Shown: positions 8,386-13,329 of the stretch, piece after piece
Layout: every line of letters starts with the position of its first letter
Numbering within the stretch: the stretch's first letter is position 1
Sequence record: PZ445502.1
DNA length: 50,979 nt
Strand: one strand, 5' to 3'
Source of the DNA: a phage
Translations under genes and position numbers: made by a program
The notes under the pieces: model-generated
Seen by the model: the letters and a program-made list of their open reading frames with translations, nothing else
What the model was told of the DNA's origin: nothing
Databases searched by the model: none

Positions 8386-8818
8386 TTATAAGATCAGGGA
8401 ATTTCACGGTGATATAAGCAGGTGGATTGATTCAGTAAGCAGCGGCCTTGTTGATTGCGTTGAAATGTTCGCGACAAACGTCCACGAGGATCTTGTAAAG
8501 CGTTCGCCAGTTGATACGGGCCGATATAAAGCTAACTGGCAGGTAACAGCAAACAAGCCGCCGCTATATGCTCTCAATCAATACGATCGCGATGGTAGTA
8601 AAACCATTGCAGAAGGCAAGCGAGCAATATATGCAATCATGCGGGGCGGTGGCGCGGTGCGGTCAATCTATTTTTCAAACATGCTTATTTACGCCAATGC
8701 GCTTGAATACGGGCATTCAAAACAAGCGCCGTCCGGCGTGCTGGGAATCGTGGCGGTAAAGCTGCGATCCTATATGACTAAGGCAATAAAGGATTCGAGG
8801 GCAAAAAATGCACTATGA
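8366..8818 (+). CDS. neck / tail component (HK97 gp10-like)
   Basis: 150 aa; gene order; overlapping starts. Confidence 0.4.
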   Translation: MQCMADNYKIREFHGDISRWIDSVSSGLVDCVEMFATNVHEDLVKRSPVDTGRYKANWQVTANKPPLYALNQYDRDGSKTIAEGKRAIYAIMRGGGAVRSIYFSNMLIYANALEYGHSKQAPSGVLGIVAVKLRSYMTKAIKDSRAKNAL

Positions 8819-9209
8819 TTTAATGTTAGCGGCAAGAAAGGCGCTGTCGGCGGAATATGAATCACGATTCAAGATCGCCTATGAAAACGTTGATTTTGTT
8901 CCGCCTGGTGATGGTTCGATGTGGTTAAAATTTGACTACATGGAAGCCGACACAGATCGCATATCTCTTGATAGAAAATGCGTTTCTTATATCGGATTGG
9001 TTCAGGTTGGAATTGTTATGCCTCCTGGCGGCGGCACTGATAAAGCGCGTTTGCTGGCTAAAGAGATTGCGAGATTTTTCTATGATGGTAGAATGTTTGA
9101 AACTGGCTATATTAGCGAGGGGGCAAACGTCCACGCATTACTAAAAAGTGAAACAGGTTGGTTCTTACCGATCCGTTTCAGTGTTAGGCTTGACACAAAG
9201 GAGGAATAA
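8808..9209 (+). CDS. tail completion / tail terminator protein
   Basis: 133 aa; directly upstream of the major tail gene. Confidence 0.4.
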   Translation: MHYDLMLAARKALSAEYESRFKIAYENVDFVPPGDGSMWLKFDYMEADTDRISLDRKCVSYIGLVQVGIVMPPGGGTDKARLLAKEIARFFYDGRMFETGYISEGANVHALLKSETGWFLPIRFSVRLDTKEE

Positions 9210-9211
9210 TC

Positions 9212-9874
9212 ATGCACTTGCCTAATGGTTCTCAAATTTTCATCGGCGTTAATATGGGTGAGCCAATTAGCGCGACTCAAATCAGCAATGCTGATAATCC
9301 TGTTTTTACAACCGAAAACACTCAAAGCATCAAAAAAGGCGCTTATGTTCTTATTGAAACATCTTCTTGGGGCAAACTTGTTAGTCGAGTGCTTCGAGTT
9401 AAGGAAGTATCAGATAATGCAAGTGTTACTCTTGAGGGTGTTAGCACTAAAGATACAAACGTATTTCCAGAAGGGCAGAACACAGCAACTTTCCGAGAAG
9501 TGAAATCTTGGGTAGAGGTTCCTTGCGTACAGGATCTTGCGCAGGACGGCGGCGAGCAACAGTATTACACTTATCAGTGTTTGGCTGATGACCAGGAGCA
9601 GCAGTTACCGACCTACAAGAGCGCGGTTTCTCTTACCTACACTTTCGCTCATGAATATGATAACCCGATTTATCCGATCTTGCGCGAGGCTGAGGAATCC
9701 GGCGACGTAACCGCTTTGCGTATGTACGTGCCGAAAGCTAAAGAGATGCGTTGCTGGGCTGGCGTATTGTCTTTTAATGACATTCCGCAAACCACTATGA
9801 ACGAAATGGAAACTGTTTCCCTTTCTGTATCTCTGAAAGGCCGATTCACGTTCTTACCTTCCGACGTTAAGTAA
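9212..9874 (+). CDS. major tail protein
   Basis: 220 aa; AGGAGG SD; followed by a strong terminator and then the chaperone and tape measure genes. Confidence 0.6.
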   Translation: MHLPNGSQIFIGVNMGEPISATQISNADNPVFTTENTQSIKKGAYVLIETSSWGKLVSRVLRVKEVSDNASVTLEGVSTKDTNVFPEGQNTATFREVKSWVEVPCVQDLAQDGGEQQYYTYQCLADDQEQQLPTYKSAVSLTYTFAHEYDNPIYPILREAEESGDVTALRMYVPKAKEMRCWAGVLSFNDIPQTTMNEMETVSLSVSLKGRFTFLPSDVK

Positions 9875-9878
9875 AACA

Positions 9879-9900
9879 AGGGGCGTTGCGCCCCTTTTTT
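9879..9900 (+). terminator. rho-independent terminator
   Basis: GGGGCGTTGCGCCCC hairpin followed by TTTTTT. Confidence 0.65.
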
Positions 9901-9942
9901 CATTCCTGTAAAATCAATCTATCAAATAAATTAATTCCACTT

Positions 9943-9959: not shown

Positions 9960-9973
9960 AAGGAGATCTTAAG

Positions 9974-10291
9974 ATGGCAAAGATGAAACTAACGTTAGGC
10001 CCACTGCCTGATTTTAAGCTGCCTGTTTCTTTCGTGCTTCCAAATGGTGATGAGCAAGTTATTGTTTTTACCGTGCGCCACAAGAAGGCAAGCGAAATTC
10101 ACGAACGATACACGGCAGAAAAGCCGATGAGCGACGTAGAAATGATCACCTTCCTTGCTTCCGGTTGGGATCTGGAAGATGAATTTAACGAGGAAAACGT
10201 TGCTAAATTGCTGGATTATTACCCGTCTGCGTCATTATCGCTGACTGGTCATTATATGAAAGCACTTGCGGGGCAGCGGGTAAAAAACTAA
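9974..10291 (+). CDS. tail assembly chaperone (G-like)
   Basis: 105 aa immediately upstream of the tape measure gene; ends in a slippery heptamer. Confidence 0.65.
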   Translation: MAKMKLTLGPLPDFKLPVSFVLPNGDEQVIVFTVRHKKASEIHERYTAEKPMSDVEMITFLASGWDLEDEFNEENVAKLLDYYPSASLSLTGHYMKALAGQRVKN

Positions 10292-10608
10292 AGCGGGCGG
10301 TTTACCTGTTTTACCTCAAGCCGCCAACTGACGCACAATTAGAGGCCGTCGGCCTATCCCGTTCAGACTACGAAGGGGAGGAGCCGCCGGAGGTAATTTT
10401 TGATGAATCAATGTTTCAATCTTGGGATCTGTTTTGCGCTATGCAGACGCAATGGAGATCGACTAGCGGCAGTGTGTATGGGTTCGACTATAACGTTTTG
10501 CCTATGCTTTTTGACATTTACAAGATTGAGGATCGGGAGATGGCGCTAAATGATTTGCGCATCATGGAACAAAAGGCGCTAGAAATGATTCATTCAAACA
10601 AAACATAA
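9974..10608 (+). CDS. tail assembly chaperone GT-like fusion made by -1 programmed frameshift at A_AAA_AAC (about 10282-10288)
   Basis: the -1 frame is open from about 10207 to 10608 and overlaps the end of the G frame; slippery heptamer sits just before the G stop. Confidence 0.5.
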
Positions 10609-10628
10609 GCGCCGCGAGGCGCTTTTTT
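10607..10628 (+). terminator. terminator-like hairpin between GT and tape measure
   Basis: GCGCCGCGAGGCGC hairpin followed by TTTTTT. Confidence 0.45.
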
Positions 10629-10647
10629 AATATCTGGAGGTTTTAAA

Positions 10648-13329
10648 ATGGCTGAAAAATACGCTGGCCTAACGCTAGGCGTTGACGTGTCGCAGGTCAA
10701 CAATGCTGTTAAATCATTGCAGCAATTCAAGAAGGCAAACGACGACGCAAAAAAAAGCGTTAATGAATTTGTTGATTCTGAGGTTGTGGCGCGACAGCAA
10801 GCAAAACAGTTTGCCGAAGAACTGGCGCGCCAGAAAGCAGAATTTAAGAAAATCCAGGAGTCAATTGATCCCACCGCGTCAAAGATGGATAAGCTGCGAA
10901 AGGCAGCGACACAGCTTGATGCGCTATGGAAAAAGGGCATTGTTCCTGATGAGACTTTTTTTGAGCTTGGATCAATTCTTGAGACGCAGCAAAACAAGCT
11001 GATCGCAACAAAAAAAGCGATGACGGAGGAAGGCCGCGCGGCGCTTGAGGAATCAAAGAACAAAGCGCGTGCAGCGGAAGAGGCTAAAAAATTCGTCCAG
11101 GCTTTGCGTGAGCAGGAAGAAGCAGCCGGAAAAAGCAAGTCTGAATTGCTGGAAATGAAAGCGGCACAGCTTGGTGTTAGCCAGGAGGCAGCGCCTTACA
11201 TCGCAAGGCTGAAAGAGCAGGAAAAGCAGATCCAAAAACTTGGAATTTCTACGGGCCAATACAAACAAGCAATGGCGCAATTGCCAATGCAGATCACAGA
11301 CGTGGTGACTTCACTTGCTTCTGGAATGCCTGTTTGGTTGGTCGCAATCCAGCAGGGCGGACAGATTAAGGATTCTTTTGGTGGCGCATCCAATGCTTTA
11401 AAAGCGTTGCTATCTTTCCTGAATCCGGTAAACGTGGCGTTTGGCTTGCTTTCCGGTACGCTGGCAATTGCTGCATATAATGCCTACAAAACACAGACAG
11501 AGTTTGAGGCAATTAAAAAAACCGTTCAGGAAACAACTGGCTTGACTGGTGATTTTGCCGAAAAGATTGCTACCGGAATACAGGAGCTTTCCGACAAGAC
11601 AGGCGAAAGCGCCGAAGATCTTGCAAAGGCTTACATCACTACGAAAGACGGCGCGAGCGAGGCGATTAAAAAACTGGTTGACGTTGGCATGACTTATGAT
11701 GACGCAAAAAAGAAAGTCAACGAGTACAAGGGCGCGTCTAGCTTTGTCAGCTTGAATAACGAAATTGCAAACCACAAAAACAAAGTCCTTGAGTTGGGCG
11801 ATTCGTGGTATGAGGTTTTGAAAGCGAAGCGTGATTACGCTTCCCCGTCCGGCGGCCTGTTAGGTAAGGAGCTTGGCTATGTTAACCCTATGCTTAAGTT
11901 TGCACTTAACACTTATGAAGACATTGGAAAGGTCGTAAAAGATGCGAATAAGGACATGGCGGAACGAGCGGAGCGAATCGACAAAGAAAACCTGGCCTTA
12001 AACAGAGTGCGCGCAGCACAGGAGGCTTTAAACAAAGCTATTGAGGATCAGAAAAATGTGGCGCGTTCGGCTGATGAAGAACTGAAAAAGCGCGCGGCTG
12101 AAAACGTGGAGTTTAGGCGCAAAGAGCTTGAGGAAATCAAGAAGCAGGAGCAGAAAAAGAAAGAGGCTAAAGGTGGAATAGTTCGCGGCCCGACTGAGCA
12201 GCTTGATAAAGAGTTGTACGTTTTAAAAGCGCAACTGGAGATGCTTAAAGAGCATCGCACTGTTAACGATGTTATTTCTCGCCAGCGTAAATCATTATGG
12301 AGTATCGAAAAGCAGATCGAGATCCTGGAGGAAGCGCAGAGCAAGCGTAAATTGACCGGAGCGGAACAGGCGCTACTAAACGAGCAAAAAGCCGTTCTTG
12401 AAATGGCAAGGCAAAAAGCGGAGCTAGGGGATCAGATTGTTTTACAGGAGCGCAAAAACAAGCTGGAGCAAGATAGCATTAAGTTTATCCGTGAAACTCA
12501 GGCGGCTATTGATGTGCTTGGCCTTAAGCAACTTGGCTACACTGAAAAGCAGATCGAGCGTGAGCTAGAGTTACGCAAGCTGCGCACCGACTACGAGGCG
12601 CAAGGCGGAAGCGTTAGCGATGAAGTTTTTCAGCAAATGGAGGCGAAACTTAAGCAGTATTATCAGACACAGGATGAGGTTCAAGGCAACTGGTTGGCAG
12701 GAGCAAAAAACGCATGGGAGATGTTCGCGCAAGATGCAAACAATGCATATGGCAATGTTCAGCAGATCGCAAGCGAGGCGTTAAACGGCCTTACAAACCA
12801 ATTAGCGAATTTTATCGCTACTGGCAAGGCAAACTTTAAAGACTTCTCGACGGCTATCATCAAAATGATTATTCAGATGATTACGAAAATGGTTGTCTTT
12901 AATGCGTTATCTGGCCTGATGGGTGGTCAAACCTGGACGATGGGGAGCTTGCTTAAGAATATTGGCGGATTTGCTGGCGGTGGATACACTGGCGACGGCG
13001 GGAAGTATGAGCCAGCCGGAATTGTCCATAAAGGTGAATTTGTCATGACGAAGGAGGCGACGCAGCGTATCGGGGTAGGAAACTTGTACCGCATGATGCG
13101 AGGCTATGCTAACGGCGGCGTTGTTGGTAGTTCCGGCTATACTGGCGGTGGCGCTGTAACTGGTGGAGCACCTCAATTTAACATCGGCGGGATTGATGTT
13201 AGCATCACTAACGGAAACGATCCGAAGGGCATCGAAACTGGTGTTAAGATGATCTTTACTGATATGATTAAACGTTCCTGTATGCAGGGCGGCGAGGTTT
13301 ACGAATTTGTTATGAGCAAGCGAGGTTGA
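10648..13329 (+). CDS. tail tape measure protein
   Basis: 893 aa; long coiled-coil-rich K/E/A/Q stretch; Gly-rich C-terminal region; position after G/GT. Confidence 0.85.
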   Translation: MAEKYAGLTLGVDVSQVNNAVKSLQQFKKANDDAKKSVNEFVDSEVVARQQAKQFAEELARQKAEFKKIQESIDPTASKMDKLRKAATQLDALWKKGIVPDETFFELGSILETQQNKLIATKKAMTEEGRAALEESKNKARAAEEAKKFVQALREQEEAAGKSKSELLEMKAAQLGVSQEAAPYIARLKEQEKQIQKLGISTGQYKQAMAQLPMQITDVVTSLASGMPVWLVAIQQGGQIKDSFGGASNALKALLSFLNPVNVAFGLLSGTLAIAAYNAYKTQTEFEAIKKTVQETTGLTGDFAEKIATGIQELSDKTGESAEDLAKAYITTKDGASEAIKKLVDVGMTYDDAKKKVNEYKGASSFVSLNNEIANHKNKVLELGDSWYEVLKAKRDYASPSGGLLGKELGYVNPMLKFALNTYEDIGKVVKDANKDMAERAERIDKENLALNRVRAAQEALNKAIEDQKNVARSADEELKKRAAENVEFRRKELEEIKKQEQKKKEAKGGIVRGPTEQLDKELYVLKAQLEMLKEHRTVNDVISRQRKSLWSIEKQIEILEEAQSKRKLTGAEQALLNEQKAVLEMARQKAELGDQIVLQERKNKLEQDSIKFIRETQAAIDVLGLKQLGYTEKQIERELELRKLRTDYEAQGGSVSDEVFQQMEAKLKQYYQTQDEVQGNWLAGAKNAWEMFAQDANNAYGNVQQIASEALNGLTNQLANFIATGKANFKDFSTAIIKMIIQMITKMVVFNALSGLMGGQTWTMGSLLKNIGGFAGGGYTGDGGKYEPAGIVHKGEFVMTKEATQRIGVGNLYRMMRGYANGGVVGSSGYTGGGAVTGGAPQFNIGGIDVSITNGNDPKGIETGVKMIFTDMIKRSCMQGGEVYEFVMSKRG

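What the first reader, a model, noticed from the sequence alone, without database searches (positions are those of the whole stretch)
10280..10291. Programmed -1 frameshift site at the end of the tail chaperone gene
The G-like ORF ends ...CGG GTA AAA AAC TAA. The heptamer A_AAA_AAC (about 10282-10288) fits the X_XXY_YYZ slippery pattern. The -1 frame is open from about 10207 to 10608 and is otherwise entered only at an ATG far downstream (10411). A slip would produce a ~211-aa GT-like fusion directly upstream of the tape measure gene, as in lambda.
Basis: partly seen in the sequence, partly recalled or inferred. Interest (0 to 1): 0.5.

Follow-up and report, generated by a model that had tools for sequence, protein, structure and literature searches.

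The report
Phage tail-chaperone programmed -1 frameshift site
This is the usual "G/GT" ribosomal slip site that long-tailed phages use to make a little of a longer tail-assembly chaperone; it is almost certainly real, but is already recognised in close relatives and so is ordinary.

Summary
The 105-aa chaperone ORF (9974-10291, Pfam Phage_TAC_4) ends GTA AAA AAC TAA. A_AAA_AAC (10282-10288) is in the right phase. The -1 frame is open to 10608, and a slip gives a 211-aa fusion just upstream of the tape measure gene.

The heptamer alone is weak evidence: 16 in-phase heptamers occur in 12 structural genes. Comparison with relatives decides it. In 93 related loci, 73 keep AAAAAAC plus an abutting stop. 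Its synonymous third positions are invariant while neighbouring ones are saturated. Third-position variation switches from the G frame to the -1 frame exactly at the heptamer. The 41 codons before the first ATG (10411) are conserved as protein and belong to the DUF1799 domain. A Ralstonia phage has G_GGA_AAC TGA at the same spot.

The window is a T1-like Warwickvirus (Drexlerviridae). Relatives (Stevie, Sanco, Solomon, U136B) already annotate or describe this frameshift. The five near-identical Warwickvirus records I opened do not, so what is missing is annotation.

The only mild oddities: A_AAA_AAC is weak in E. coli reporters (0.16-0.74%), and the stop codon always abuts it. Efficiency, exact slip mode and stimulators are untested.

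The parts
9212..9874 (+). Major tail (tube) protein gene; upstream boundary of the chaperone cassette
   Evidence: Pfam Phage_tail_3, E 1.5e-62; annotated as major tail protein in relatives
9878..9903 (+). Intrinsic-terminator-like hairpin plus T-run between the major tail gene and G
   Evidence: Consensus scan; T1 RefSeq annotates a terminator at the equivalent place
9960..9965 (+). Shine-Dalgarno-like AAGGAG, 8 nt before the G start codon
   Evidence: Read directly from the sequence
9974..10291 (+). G-like tail assembly (tape measure) chaperone ORF, 105 aa: the product of standard decoding
   Evidence: Pfam Phage_TAC_4, E 5e-31, full length; PHROG 17368 positions 1-107; the exact protein is in public records as 'tape measure chaperone'/TfmA
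10282..10288 (+). Slippery heptamer A_AAA_AAC, in phase for a tandem -1 slip
   Evidence: AAAAAAC plus an abutting stop is kept in 73 of 93 related loci. Synonymous sites 10282 and 10285 are invariant in 64 unique junctions, while flanking third positions carry 1.4-2.0 bits
10289..10291 (+). G stop codon TAA directly abutting the heptamer; it is also bases 2-3 of the first -1-frame Leu codon plus the next base
   Evidence: The stop abuts the site in all 93 loci (TAA 90, TGA 3). The Leu codon is CTA in 59 of 66 unique junctions, although CTA is only 9% of Leu codons in the window's structural genes
10288..10608 (+). -1 frame extension (T-like domain, 106 aa plus stop), read only after the slip
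   Evidence: Pfam DUF1799 covers profile positions 3-80 only when the residues upstream of ATG 10411 are included. PHROG 17368 positions 109-211. tblastn covers at least 80% of the extension in 1,112 phage records, and from residue 1 in nearly every row listed. Synonymous/nonsynonymous codon differences are 775/506 in this frame against 54/1174 in the G frame
10296..10325 (+). Candidate 3' stimulatory hairpin (8 bp: 10296-10303 with 10318-10325; 14-nt loop), 7 nt after the heptamer
   Evidence: MFE fold. 79.7% of cells are paired in 45 unique relatives, against 31-54% when the partner is slid. But there is no RNAalifold consensus, z is about 0 in the window, and the hairpin is missing in distant clades: inconclusive
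10411..10608 (+). 65-aa ORF that databases annotate as a separate gene; here read as the C-terminal part of the T domain
   Evidence: Annotated separately in JLBYU19, ExeQuayColi and PeterMerian. No SD-like motif 3-18 nt upstream, and the ATG is absent in Webervirus relatives
10607..10630 (+). Intrinsic-terminator-like hairpin plus T-run between the T stop and the tape measure gene
   Evidence: T1 and Stevie records annotate a terminator here
10648..13329 (+). Tape measure protein gene; downstream boundary and presumed client of the chaperones
   Evidence: Pfam TMP_2 and Tape_meas_lam_C

Best explanation
This is a programmed -1 ribosomal frameshift of the conserved siphophage G/GT type, in a T1-like phage (Warwickvirus, Drexlerviridae).

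Most ribosomes translating the chaperone gene (9974-10291) stop at TAA and release the 105-aa G-like protein. A small fraction slip back one base on A_AAA_AAC (10282-10288) and continue in the -1 frame to 10608. This yields a 211-aa G-T fusion: G residues 1-105, then LKRAVYL... if the slip follows decoding of Asn, or ...VKK-LKR... if the Lys tRNA slips first.

By analogy with lambda (inferred, not shown here), the G part binds the tape measure protein and the T part (DUF1799) recruits the major tail protein. The slip rate would then fix the G:GT ratio.

What is shown: the site, its phase, its conservation, the frame switch in the coding signature, and the lack of an independent start. What is inferred: that the slip is ribosomal, its efficiency, the role of the abutting stop codon and the downstream hairpin, and the chaperone function.
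For: 1. Anatomy. The heptamer is in phase, it is the only one in the overlap, the -1 frame is open, and the fusion is 211 aa.

2. Position. The pair lies between the major tail gene and the tape measure gene in a lambda-order tail module: terminator, tube, G, T, H, M, L, K, I, J.

3. Domains. G is Phage_TAC_4. The extension is DUF1799, and its N-terminal 17 profile positions lie upstream of ATG 10411. PHROG 17368 is a 213-position fused family matched end to end by G plus the extension.

4. Conservation of the signal. In 93 related loci, 73 have AAAAAAC plus an abutting stop. Bases 10282 and 10285 are synonymous sites yet invariant, while neighbouring third positions carry 1.4-2.0 bits.

5. 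Frame switch. Mean third-position entropy is 1.67 bits in the G frame upstream (0.76 and 0.52 at positions 1 and 2). Downstream it is 1.33 bits in the -1 frame (0.56 and 0.49). Codon changes in extension codons 2-31 are 775 synonymous to 506 nonsynonymous in the -1 frame, against 54 to 1174 in the G frame.

6. Distant relatives. Phages at 30-42% identity in the T domain (phiES15, SO-1, PaulFeyerabend) keep A_AAA_AAC TAA. A Ralstonia phage has a different canonical heptamer, G_GGA_AAC TGA, at the same place.

7. No start codon with an SD-like motif upstream serves the T ORF. In ORFs that gene callers extended upstream, conservation starts only at KKLKRAVYL.

8. Relatives annotate the joined CDS: Stevie and Sanco and a 210-aa Solomon protein. 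Papers on Stevie and U136B state it.

9. A_AAA_AAC is a proven -1 site in E. coli, in IS1 (Sharma et al. 2014).
Against: - There is no experimental evidence for any T1-like phage in what I could read; everything here is comparative.
- A_AAA_AAC is a weak motif in E. coli reporters: 0.163% without a stimulator, 0.189% with the IS911 stimulators and 0.739% with the IS3 pseudoknot. A_AAA_AAG gives 0.29, 4.3 and 39% in the same assays.
- No convincing stimulator was found. The hairpin is not better than shuffles in the window itself and is not conserved family-wide. There is no conserved SD-like element upstream.
- Fourteen Webervirus loci lack a canonical heptamer (A_AAA GTY/GCC), so the tandem-slip model does not cover the whole family.
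- The exact 211-aa fusion is not in the 15-billion-protein collection.
Confidence: 0.9

Rival explanations
1. Same fusion, different trigger ('shifty stop'). The slip happens when the Asn tRNA sits on AAC in the P site and the slowly decoded stop codon TAA is in the A site. The Asn tRNA re-pairs with AAA and Leu CTA is read next. This is a variant of the main explanation rather than an alternative to it.
For: - The stop codon abuts the site in all 93 loci.
- The -1-frame Leu codon is CTA in 59 of 66 unique junctions, although CTA is only 9% of Leu codons here. The bases that make TAA are therefore constrained beyond what the protein needs.
- The heptamer is intrinsically weak in reporters that lack this stop context.
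- 'Shifty stops' are an established concept (Weiss et al. 1987, listed in PMC5009743).
- The Ralstonia variant G_GGA_AAC TGA keeps A_AAC plus a stop.
Against: - The stop may be kept simply because G must end there.
- Invariance of 10282, the first A of the heptamer, is what a tandem slip requires and a pure P-site A_AAC slip does not.
- Webervirus (AAA GTY TAA) and HBM00 (AAG CAC TAA) cannot slip on their last sense codon.
- Not tested experimentally.
Confidence: 0.25
2. The T ORF is an independent gene, translated from ATG 10411 (65 aa) or another internal start. No fusion is made.
For: Several GenBank records annotate a separate 65-aa CDS, and T1 annotates a 55-aa one. The exact 65-aa protein is in public collections. 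Met42 and Met52 are widely conserved.
Against: - The 41 codons upstream of the ATG are conserved as protein, with -1-frame third-position variation.
- These codons are part of DUF1799 and PHROG 17368.
- No SD-like motif lies 3-18 nt upstream of 10411. The GGAGG at 10389-10393 is 17 nt away.
- The ATG at codon 42 is absent in Webervirus and in L065.
- It does not explain the invariance of the heptamer at synonymous sites.
Confidence: 0.04
3. Transcriptional slippage: RNA polymerase adds an extra A in the A6 run, and the edited mRNA encodes ...VKK-LKR... in one frame.
For: A run of six A is present. The product would be the same length. Four relatives are recorded with A5 instead of A6, which shows the run is error-prone at least for sequencing.
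Against: - From established knowledge (Baranov et al. 2005, cited), productive slippage in bacteria uses runs of about 9 or more A/T. A6 is short.
- The run length is never extended in 93 loci. The flanking C and the stop are conserved, which polymerase slippage does not need.
- The Ralstonia variant G_GGA_AAC has no homopolymer run but is a canonical ribosomal heptamer.
Confidence: 0.03
4. Chance heptamer with no recoding. The downstream conserved ORF is non-functional, or the site is an annotation or sequencing artefact.
For: In-phase heptamers are common in this A-rich genome: 16 in 12 genes, and about an 11% chance within the overlap.
Against: Conservation across 93 loci and more than 1,100 phage records, the frame switch in the substitution pattern, and the heptamer swap in the Ralstonia phage.
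Confidence: 0.01

Closest known systems
Tape measure chaperone frameshift of other T1-like phages: Citrobacter phage Stevie gp15/gp16 (NC_027350); Klebsiella phages Sanco and Solomon; E. coli phage U136B
   Same: Same protein families. Stevie's T extension is 78% identical. Stevie has the identical GTA AAA AAC TAA junction and the same gene order. Joined CDS are annotated in Stevie and Sanco, and Solomon has a 210-aa protein. The frameshift is stated in the Stevie and U136B papers.
   Different: The Warwickvirus records nearly identical to the window that I opened (tonn, swan01, JLBYU19, ExeQuayColi, PeterMerian) do not annotate the fusion. The exact 211-aa fusion is absent from the protein collection. 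Sanco-type Webervirus phages have A_AAA GTY instead of the heptamer.
Phage lambda gpG/gpGT (slip on G_GGA_AAG; G:GT about 30:1)
   Same: Same position between the major tail gene and the tape measure gene, same -1 direction, a short upstream ORF with a C-terminal extension, and flanking genes H, M, L, K, I, J homologous by Pfam. The presumed logic is the same: the G part binds the tape measure protein and the T part binds the tube protein (PMC5009743).
   Different: No detectable sequence similarity and different Pfam families: PF06894/PF06223 against PF08748/PF08809. The heptamer differs. Here the stop abuts the heptamer, whereas lambda T is annotated from 10115, 19 nt before the G stop at 10133. 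No fold-level link could be made.
IS1 insA-insB' frameshift (A_AAA_AAC)
   Same: Same heptamer, same host translation machinery, low-level -1 frameshifting that makes a fusion, and no established stimulator (Sharma et al. 2014).
   Different: A transposase rather than a phage chaperone. I did not compare the IS1 sequence context or the position of its stop codon.
E. coli dnaX (A_AAA_AAG with an upstream SD-like element and a downstream hairpin)
   Same: An A-rich heptamer decoded by the same Lys tRNA, with a hairpin candidate 7 nt downstream.
   Different: The last base is C, not G, and this motif is far less efficient in reporters. There is no conserved SD-like stimulator. The frameshift product is longer here, not shorter.

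Membership tests
Conserved tailed-phage G/GT tail-assembly-chaperone frameshift (Xu, Hendrix & Duda 2004 sense) | Two small ORFs between the major tail protein gene and the tape measure gene | tested here: met
   9212-9874 tube protein; 9974-10291 G; 10288-10608 T; 10648-13329 tape measure
Conserved tailed-phage G/GT tail-assembly-chaperone frameshift (Xu, Hendrix & Duda 2004 sense) | The second ORF overlaps the end of the first in another frame and lacks its own start signal | tested here: met
   The -1 frame is open from 10207. The first start codon is 10411, 41 conserved codons into the domain, with no SD-like motif 3-18 nt upstream
Conserved tailed-phage G/GT tail-assembly-chaperone frameshift (Xu, Hendrix & Duda 2004 sense) | A slippery sequence in the overlap, in the correct phase | tested here: met
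   A_AAA_AAC at 10282-10288, the only in-phase heptamer in the overlap
Conserved tailed-phage G/GT tail-assembly-chaperone frameshift (Xu, Hendrix & Duda 2004 sense) | The site and the two-frame arrangement are conserved among relatives despite sequence divergence | tested here: met
   73 of 93 loci keep AAAAAAC plus a stop; synonymous sites are frozen; the coding signature switches frame at the heptamer; the heptamer is swapped for G_GGA_AAC in a Ralstonia phage
Conserved tailed-phage G/GT tail-assembly-chaperone frameshift (Xu, Hendrix & Duda 2004 sense) | A fusion protein is actually made at a low, fixed ratio, and both products are needed for tail assembly | not testable with these tools
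   Needs a reporter assay, western blot or mass spectrometry of infected cells, and phage genetics
Lambda gpG (Pfam PF06894) / gpT (PF06223) protein families | Sequence homology to lambda G and T | tested here: not met
   BLASTP finds no alignment for G and E = 0.97 for T. Lambda proteins hit PF06894/PF06223, and the window proteins hit PF08748/PF08809
Pfam Phage_TAC_4 (PF08748) + DUF1799 (PF08809) pair; PHROG 17368 (fused form) | Profile matches above the curated cut-offs, covering the whole profiles | tested here: met
   PF08748: 107.9 bits (cut-off 21.1), profile positions 1-124 of 124. PF08809: 48 bits (cut-off 26), profile positions 3-80 of 80. PHROG 17368: positions 1-107 and 109-211 of 213
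Canonical tandem-slippage -1 PRF signal (X_XXY_YYZ plus a stimulator) | X_XXY_YYZ heptamer in the zero frame | tested here: met
Canonical tandem-slippage -1 PRF signal (X_XXY_YYZ plus a stimulator) | A stable RNA structure 5-9 nt downstream, supported by covariation | tested here: inconclusive
   An 8-bp hairpin 7 nt downstream, about -13 kcal/mol, z about 0 in the window and z -3.5 in T1 and Stevie.
Canonical tandem-slippage -1 PRF signal (X_XXY_YYZ plus a stimulator) | An upstream SD-like stimulator (dnaX/IS911 type) | tested here: not met
   There is no conserved purine-rich SD-like element. Third positions 10270-10279 vary freely at 1.75-2.0 bits

The most novel reading that the evidence does not exclude
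The functional signal may not be the heptamer alone. It may be a composite 'X_XXA_AAC plus abutting stop codon' element, conserved from Escherichia to Ralstonia phages. The slowly decoded stop would raise slippage on a heptamer that is otherwise very weak in E. coli (0.16-0.74%), or it would set an unusually low GT:G ratio. That would be a distinct, family-wide flavour of the phage G/GT signal.
Probability: 0.25. Interest if true: 0.35.

Novelty: already known. Interest (0 to 1): 0.15.

Why it matters
Practically, many T1-like (Warwickvirus) genome records, including therapy candidates and the BASEL collection phage PeterMerian, list G and a truncated 65-aa 'hypothetical protein' instead of the 211-aa GT fusion. 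The site defined here (slip at 10282-10288, join at 10288) would correct them.

Biologically it adds nothing new in kind. It is one more instance of the conserved tail-chaperone frameshift.

The one open point is how a heptamer that shifts in under 1% of passages in E. coli reporters serves this role, and whether the invariably abutting stop codon is part of the signal.

Tried and rejected
- **Structure route to link G and T to lambda G and T or to solved chaperones.** AlphaFold2 of G without an alignment gave pLDDT 43.6, which is unusable. The T extension with a 4-sequence alignment gave pLDDT 67. Foldseek then found only members of the same family in BFVD and nothing in the PDB. A sequence search of the PDB was also empty.
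- **The search for homologous proteins with the fused 211-aa query.** It returned only 3 proteins: T ORFs of 123-136 aa extended upstream by gene callers. This was useful only to show that conservation begins at KKLKRAVYL.
- **Downstream hairpin as a proven stimulator.** Rejected as proven. It is present in the window's clade, but there is no alignment-wide consensus and z is about 0 in the window.
- **Upstream SD-like stimulator.** Not conserved.
- **Xu et al. 2004 (Mol Cell)** is not held in the library. I therefore could not check whether T1 itself is in their table. The PRFect supplement does not mention T1.
- **Independent start for T**, rejected.
- **Chance**, rejected on the comparative data.

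Full report
**What the window is.** An 801-base stretch around the finding is 99.5-100% identical to the listed Escherichia phages tonn, tunus, ityhuna, swan01, JLBYU19, ExeQuayColi and others. GenBank classifies these as Drexlerviridae, Tempevirinae, Warwickvirus, that is, T1-like siphophages.

The genes around the finding form a lambda-order tail module:
- tail terminator, 8808-9209
- major tail protein, 9212-9874
- the two small ORFs in question
- tape measure protein, 10648-13329, with lambda-type TMP_2 and Tape_meas_lam_C domains
- homologues of lambda M, L, K, I and J

**Check of the observation.** All statements are correct.
- The 105-aa ORF 9974-10291 ends CGG GTA AAA AAC TAA.
- A_AAA_AAC occupies 10282-10288 with 10282 as a codon third base, which is the phase X_XXY_YYZ requires. 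It is the only in-phase heptamer in the overlap.
- The -1 frame is closed at 10204-10206 and open from 10207 to the stop at 10606-10608.
- Its first ATG/GTG/TTG is at 10411.
- A slip gives 105 + 106 = 211 aa.

On sequence alone this is only suggestive. AAAAAAC occurs 18 times on the + strand. In-phase X_XXY_YYZ heptamers occur 16 times in 3,854 codon positions of 12 structural genes. One would therefore fall in a 28-codon overlap about once in nine trials.

**Protein evidence.**
- G is a full-length Phage_TAC_4 (PF08748, E 5e-31).
- The -1 extension is DUF1799 (PF08809). With the residues upstream of the ATG it covers profile positions 3-80 of 80. The 65-aa ATG-initiated version covers only 20-80.
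- PHROG 17368 is a 213-position family. Its first half is matched by G (positions 1-107) and its second half by the extension (109-211), so it is a family of fused GT proteins.
- tblastn with the 106-aa extension finds 1,137 phage records. In 1,112 of them at least 80% of the extension is covered, and nearly every listed row starts at residue 1, the codon that overlaps the heptamer.
- ORFs that gene callers extended upstream in the -1 frame (123-136 aa) align only from KKLKRAVYL onward. Upstream of that they are unrelated.

**Nucleotide evidence from relatives.** I collected 88 related loci from GenBank phages and IMG/VR and five very distant ones.

| Junction type | Loci (of 93) |
|---|---|
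| AAAAAAC + TAA | 71 |
| AAAAAAC + TGA | 2 |
| AAAAGTY or AAAAGCC + TAA (Webervirus) | 14 |
| One A fewer (A5) | 4 |
| GGGAAAC + TGA (Ralstonia phage) | 1 |
| AAAGCAC + TAA (Klebsiella phage HBM00) | 1 |

- Among 64-66 unique junction sequences, G-frame third positions just upstream (10264-10279) carry 1.4-2.0 bits of entropy. The third positions inside the heptamer carry none (10282, 10285) or 0.4 bits (10288).
- In this genome GTA is only 20% of Val codons, AAA 55% of Lys codons and AAC 60% of Asn codons. The freeze is therefore at the nucleotide level.
- The periodicity of variation switches at the heptamer. Upstream, entropy by G-frame codon position is 0.76/0.52/1.67. Downstream, by -1-frame position, it is 0.56/0.49/1.33.
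- Codon differences from the window in extension codons 2-31 are 775 synonymous to 506 nonsynonymous in the -1 frame. The same bases give 54 to 1174 in the G frame and 136 to 1084 in the +1 frame.
- Phages with only 30-42% identity in the T domain (Cronobacter phiES15, Sodalis SO-1, Escherichia PaulFeyerabend) have GAA AAA AAC TAA. Ralstonia phage YO192_1 has CGG GGA AAC TGA, a different canonical heptamer at the same place.

Such replacement of one slippery heptamer by another, with the geometry kept, is what a functional shift site predicts.

**Independent expression of T.** The first start codon of the -1 ORF is codon 42. It has no SD-like motif 3-18 nt upstream, and the nearest GGAGG (10389-10393) is 17 nt away. 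This ATG is missing in Webervirus relatives and in L065. The 41 conserved codons before it would be unexplained. I put this rival at about 4%.

**Mechanism.** The default is a tandem -1 slip, with the Lys tRNA moving from AAA to AAA and the Asn tRNA from AAC to AAA. Decoding then continues with CTA AAG CGG..., giving ...QRVKN-LKRAVYL....

Sharma et al. (2014) measured this heptamer in E. coli (supplement; text):

| Motif | No stimulator | IS911 stimulators | IS3 pseudoknot |
|---|---|---|---|
| A_AAA_AAC | 0.163% | 0.189% | 0.739% |
| A_AAA_AAG | 0.29% | 4.3% | 39% |

The same heptamer is the proven IS1 shift site, which has no established stimulator. So either GT is made at well under 1% of G, or the context helps.

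Two context features stand out.
- **The abutting stop codon.** It abuts the site in all 93 loci. The -1-frame Leu codon is CTA in 59 of 66 unique junctions, although CTA is 9% of Leu codons. This fits a 'shifty stop' contribution (Weiss et al. 1987, listed in PMC5009743). It could also just reflect a need to end G there.
- **The downstream hairpin.** An 8-bp hairpin (10296-10303 with 10318-10325) starts 7 nt after the heptamer. In T1 and Stevie the equivalent, longer hairpin folds much better than shuffles (z -3.5). In the window z is about 0, and in more distant clades it is absent. Pair counts (79.7% paired against 31-54% when slid) favour it. I call this inconclusive.

No conserved upstream SD-like element exists. 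Transcriptional slippage on A6 is unlikely. The run is short, it is never lengthened, the flanking C and stop are conserved, and the Ralstonia variant has no homopolymer run.

**Function.** In lambda, gpG and the G part of gpGT bind the tape measure protein. The T part binds the major tail protein. The 30:1 ratio is crucial, and neither product is in virions (PMC5009743). Here the same role is inferred from position and family names only.

The proteins are not detectably related to lambda G and T. Attempts to link them by fold failed. The model of the T extension (pLDDT 67) does place secondary-structure elements (strands at 3-6 and 35-38, helices at 15-20 and 25-29) upstream of Met42. This is consistent with that segment being part of the domain.

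**Comparison with what is known, and novelty.** The frameshift is already annotated as a joined CDS in Citrobacter phage Stevie, which belongs to the same subfamily and has an identical junction, and in Klebsiella phage Sanco. A 210-aa fused chaperone of phage Solomon is in UniProt/BFVD. The genome papers of Stevie and U136B mention the conserved frameshift in T1-like phages.

The five Warwickvirus records nearly identical to the window that I opened do not annotate it. T1 RefSeq lists two separate CDS. The exact 211-aa fusion is not in the 15-billion-protein collection, while G and the 65-aa ORF are.

So the finding is a correct call of a known feature that is under-annotated in this genus. 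I found no experimental demonstration for any T1-like phage.

**Verdict.** Novelty: already known. Interest: low (0.15). The residual question is the role of the weak heptamer and its invariably abutting stop codon.

Noticed in passing
window 9878-9903 and 10607-10630: Terminator-like GC hairpins followed by T-runs bracket the G-T cassette, one after the major tail gene and one between T and the tape measure gene. T1 and Stevie records annotate terminators at the same two places. This suggests transcriptional attenuation steps along the tail operon.
   Followed up: partly
L006, L076-L088 (Webervirus relatives), junction equivalent to window 10282-10291: Fourteen Klebsiella-phage relatives have GCA AAA GTY (or GCC) TAA. 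There is no X_XXY_YYZ heptamer, only A_AAA one codon before the end. The -1 T domain is still conserved, and Sanco annotates a joined CDS. The slip mechanism there must differ, for example a Lys-tRNA-only slip.
   Followed up: partly
L043, L044, L063, L073 (= Salmonella phage 36), junction: Four relatives are recorded with five A instead of six (GTA AAA AC TAA). This puts T in the +1 frame relative to G. These are probably homopolymer sequencing errors, but I did not verify that.
   Followed up: no
L093 (Ralstonia phage YO192_1) and L094 (Klebsiella phage HBM00), position 601: Very distant members of the same chaperone family carry CGG GGA AAC TGA (canonical G_GGA_AAC) and CAA AAG CAC TAA (only an A_AAG tetramer). 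In both the stop is at or next to the site.
   Followed up: partly
window 10400-10549 (+), G frame: A 49-aa ORF (TTG 10400, ATG 10403) lies 9 nt after a GGAGG at 10389-10393, inside the T coding region. It is most likely spurious; the GGAGG encodes Pro-Glu-Val of the T domain.
   Followed up: no
public records for window 9974-10291 and 10411-10608: Product naming is inconsistent. G and T are called 'tail length tape measure protein' in RefSeq and PHROGs, TfmA/TfmS in older records, and 'hypothetical protein' elsewhere. Gene callers also emit 100-136-aa T ORFs whose N-termini are junk read from the -1 frame of G.
   Followed up: partly
proteins identical to window 9974-10291 and 10411-10608 in other records: Identical G and 65-aa T proteins occur in assemblies labelled Xanthomonas hyacinthi DSM 19077 and Shigella flexneri. 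An 81%-identical T domain occurs in 'Campylobacter phage A127'. This looks like carry-over or contamination by T1-like coliphages.
   Followed up: no
window 8160, 8803, 10749, 10932, 10956, 11010, 11397, 11706, 12027, 12222, 12705, 14329, 16150, 16627, 18367: Fifteen other in-phase X_XXY_YYZ heptamers lie in structural genes. They include the highly shift-prone A_AAA_AAG at 11706 (tape measure) and 16627 (J-like). I did not check whether any is followed by a conserved -1 ORF.
   Followed up: no
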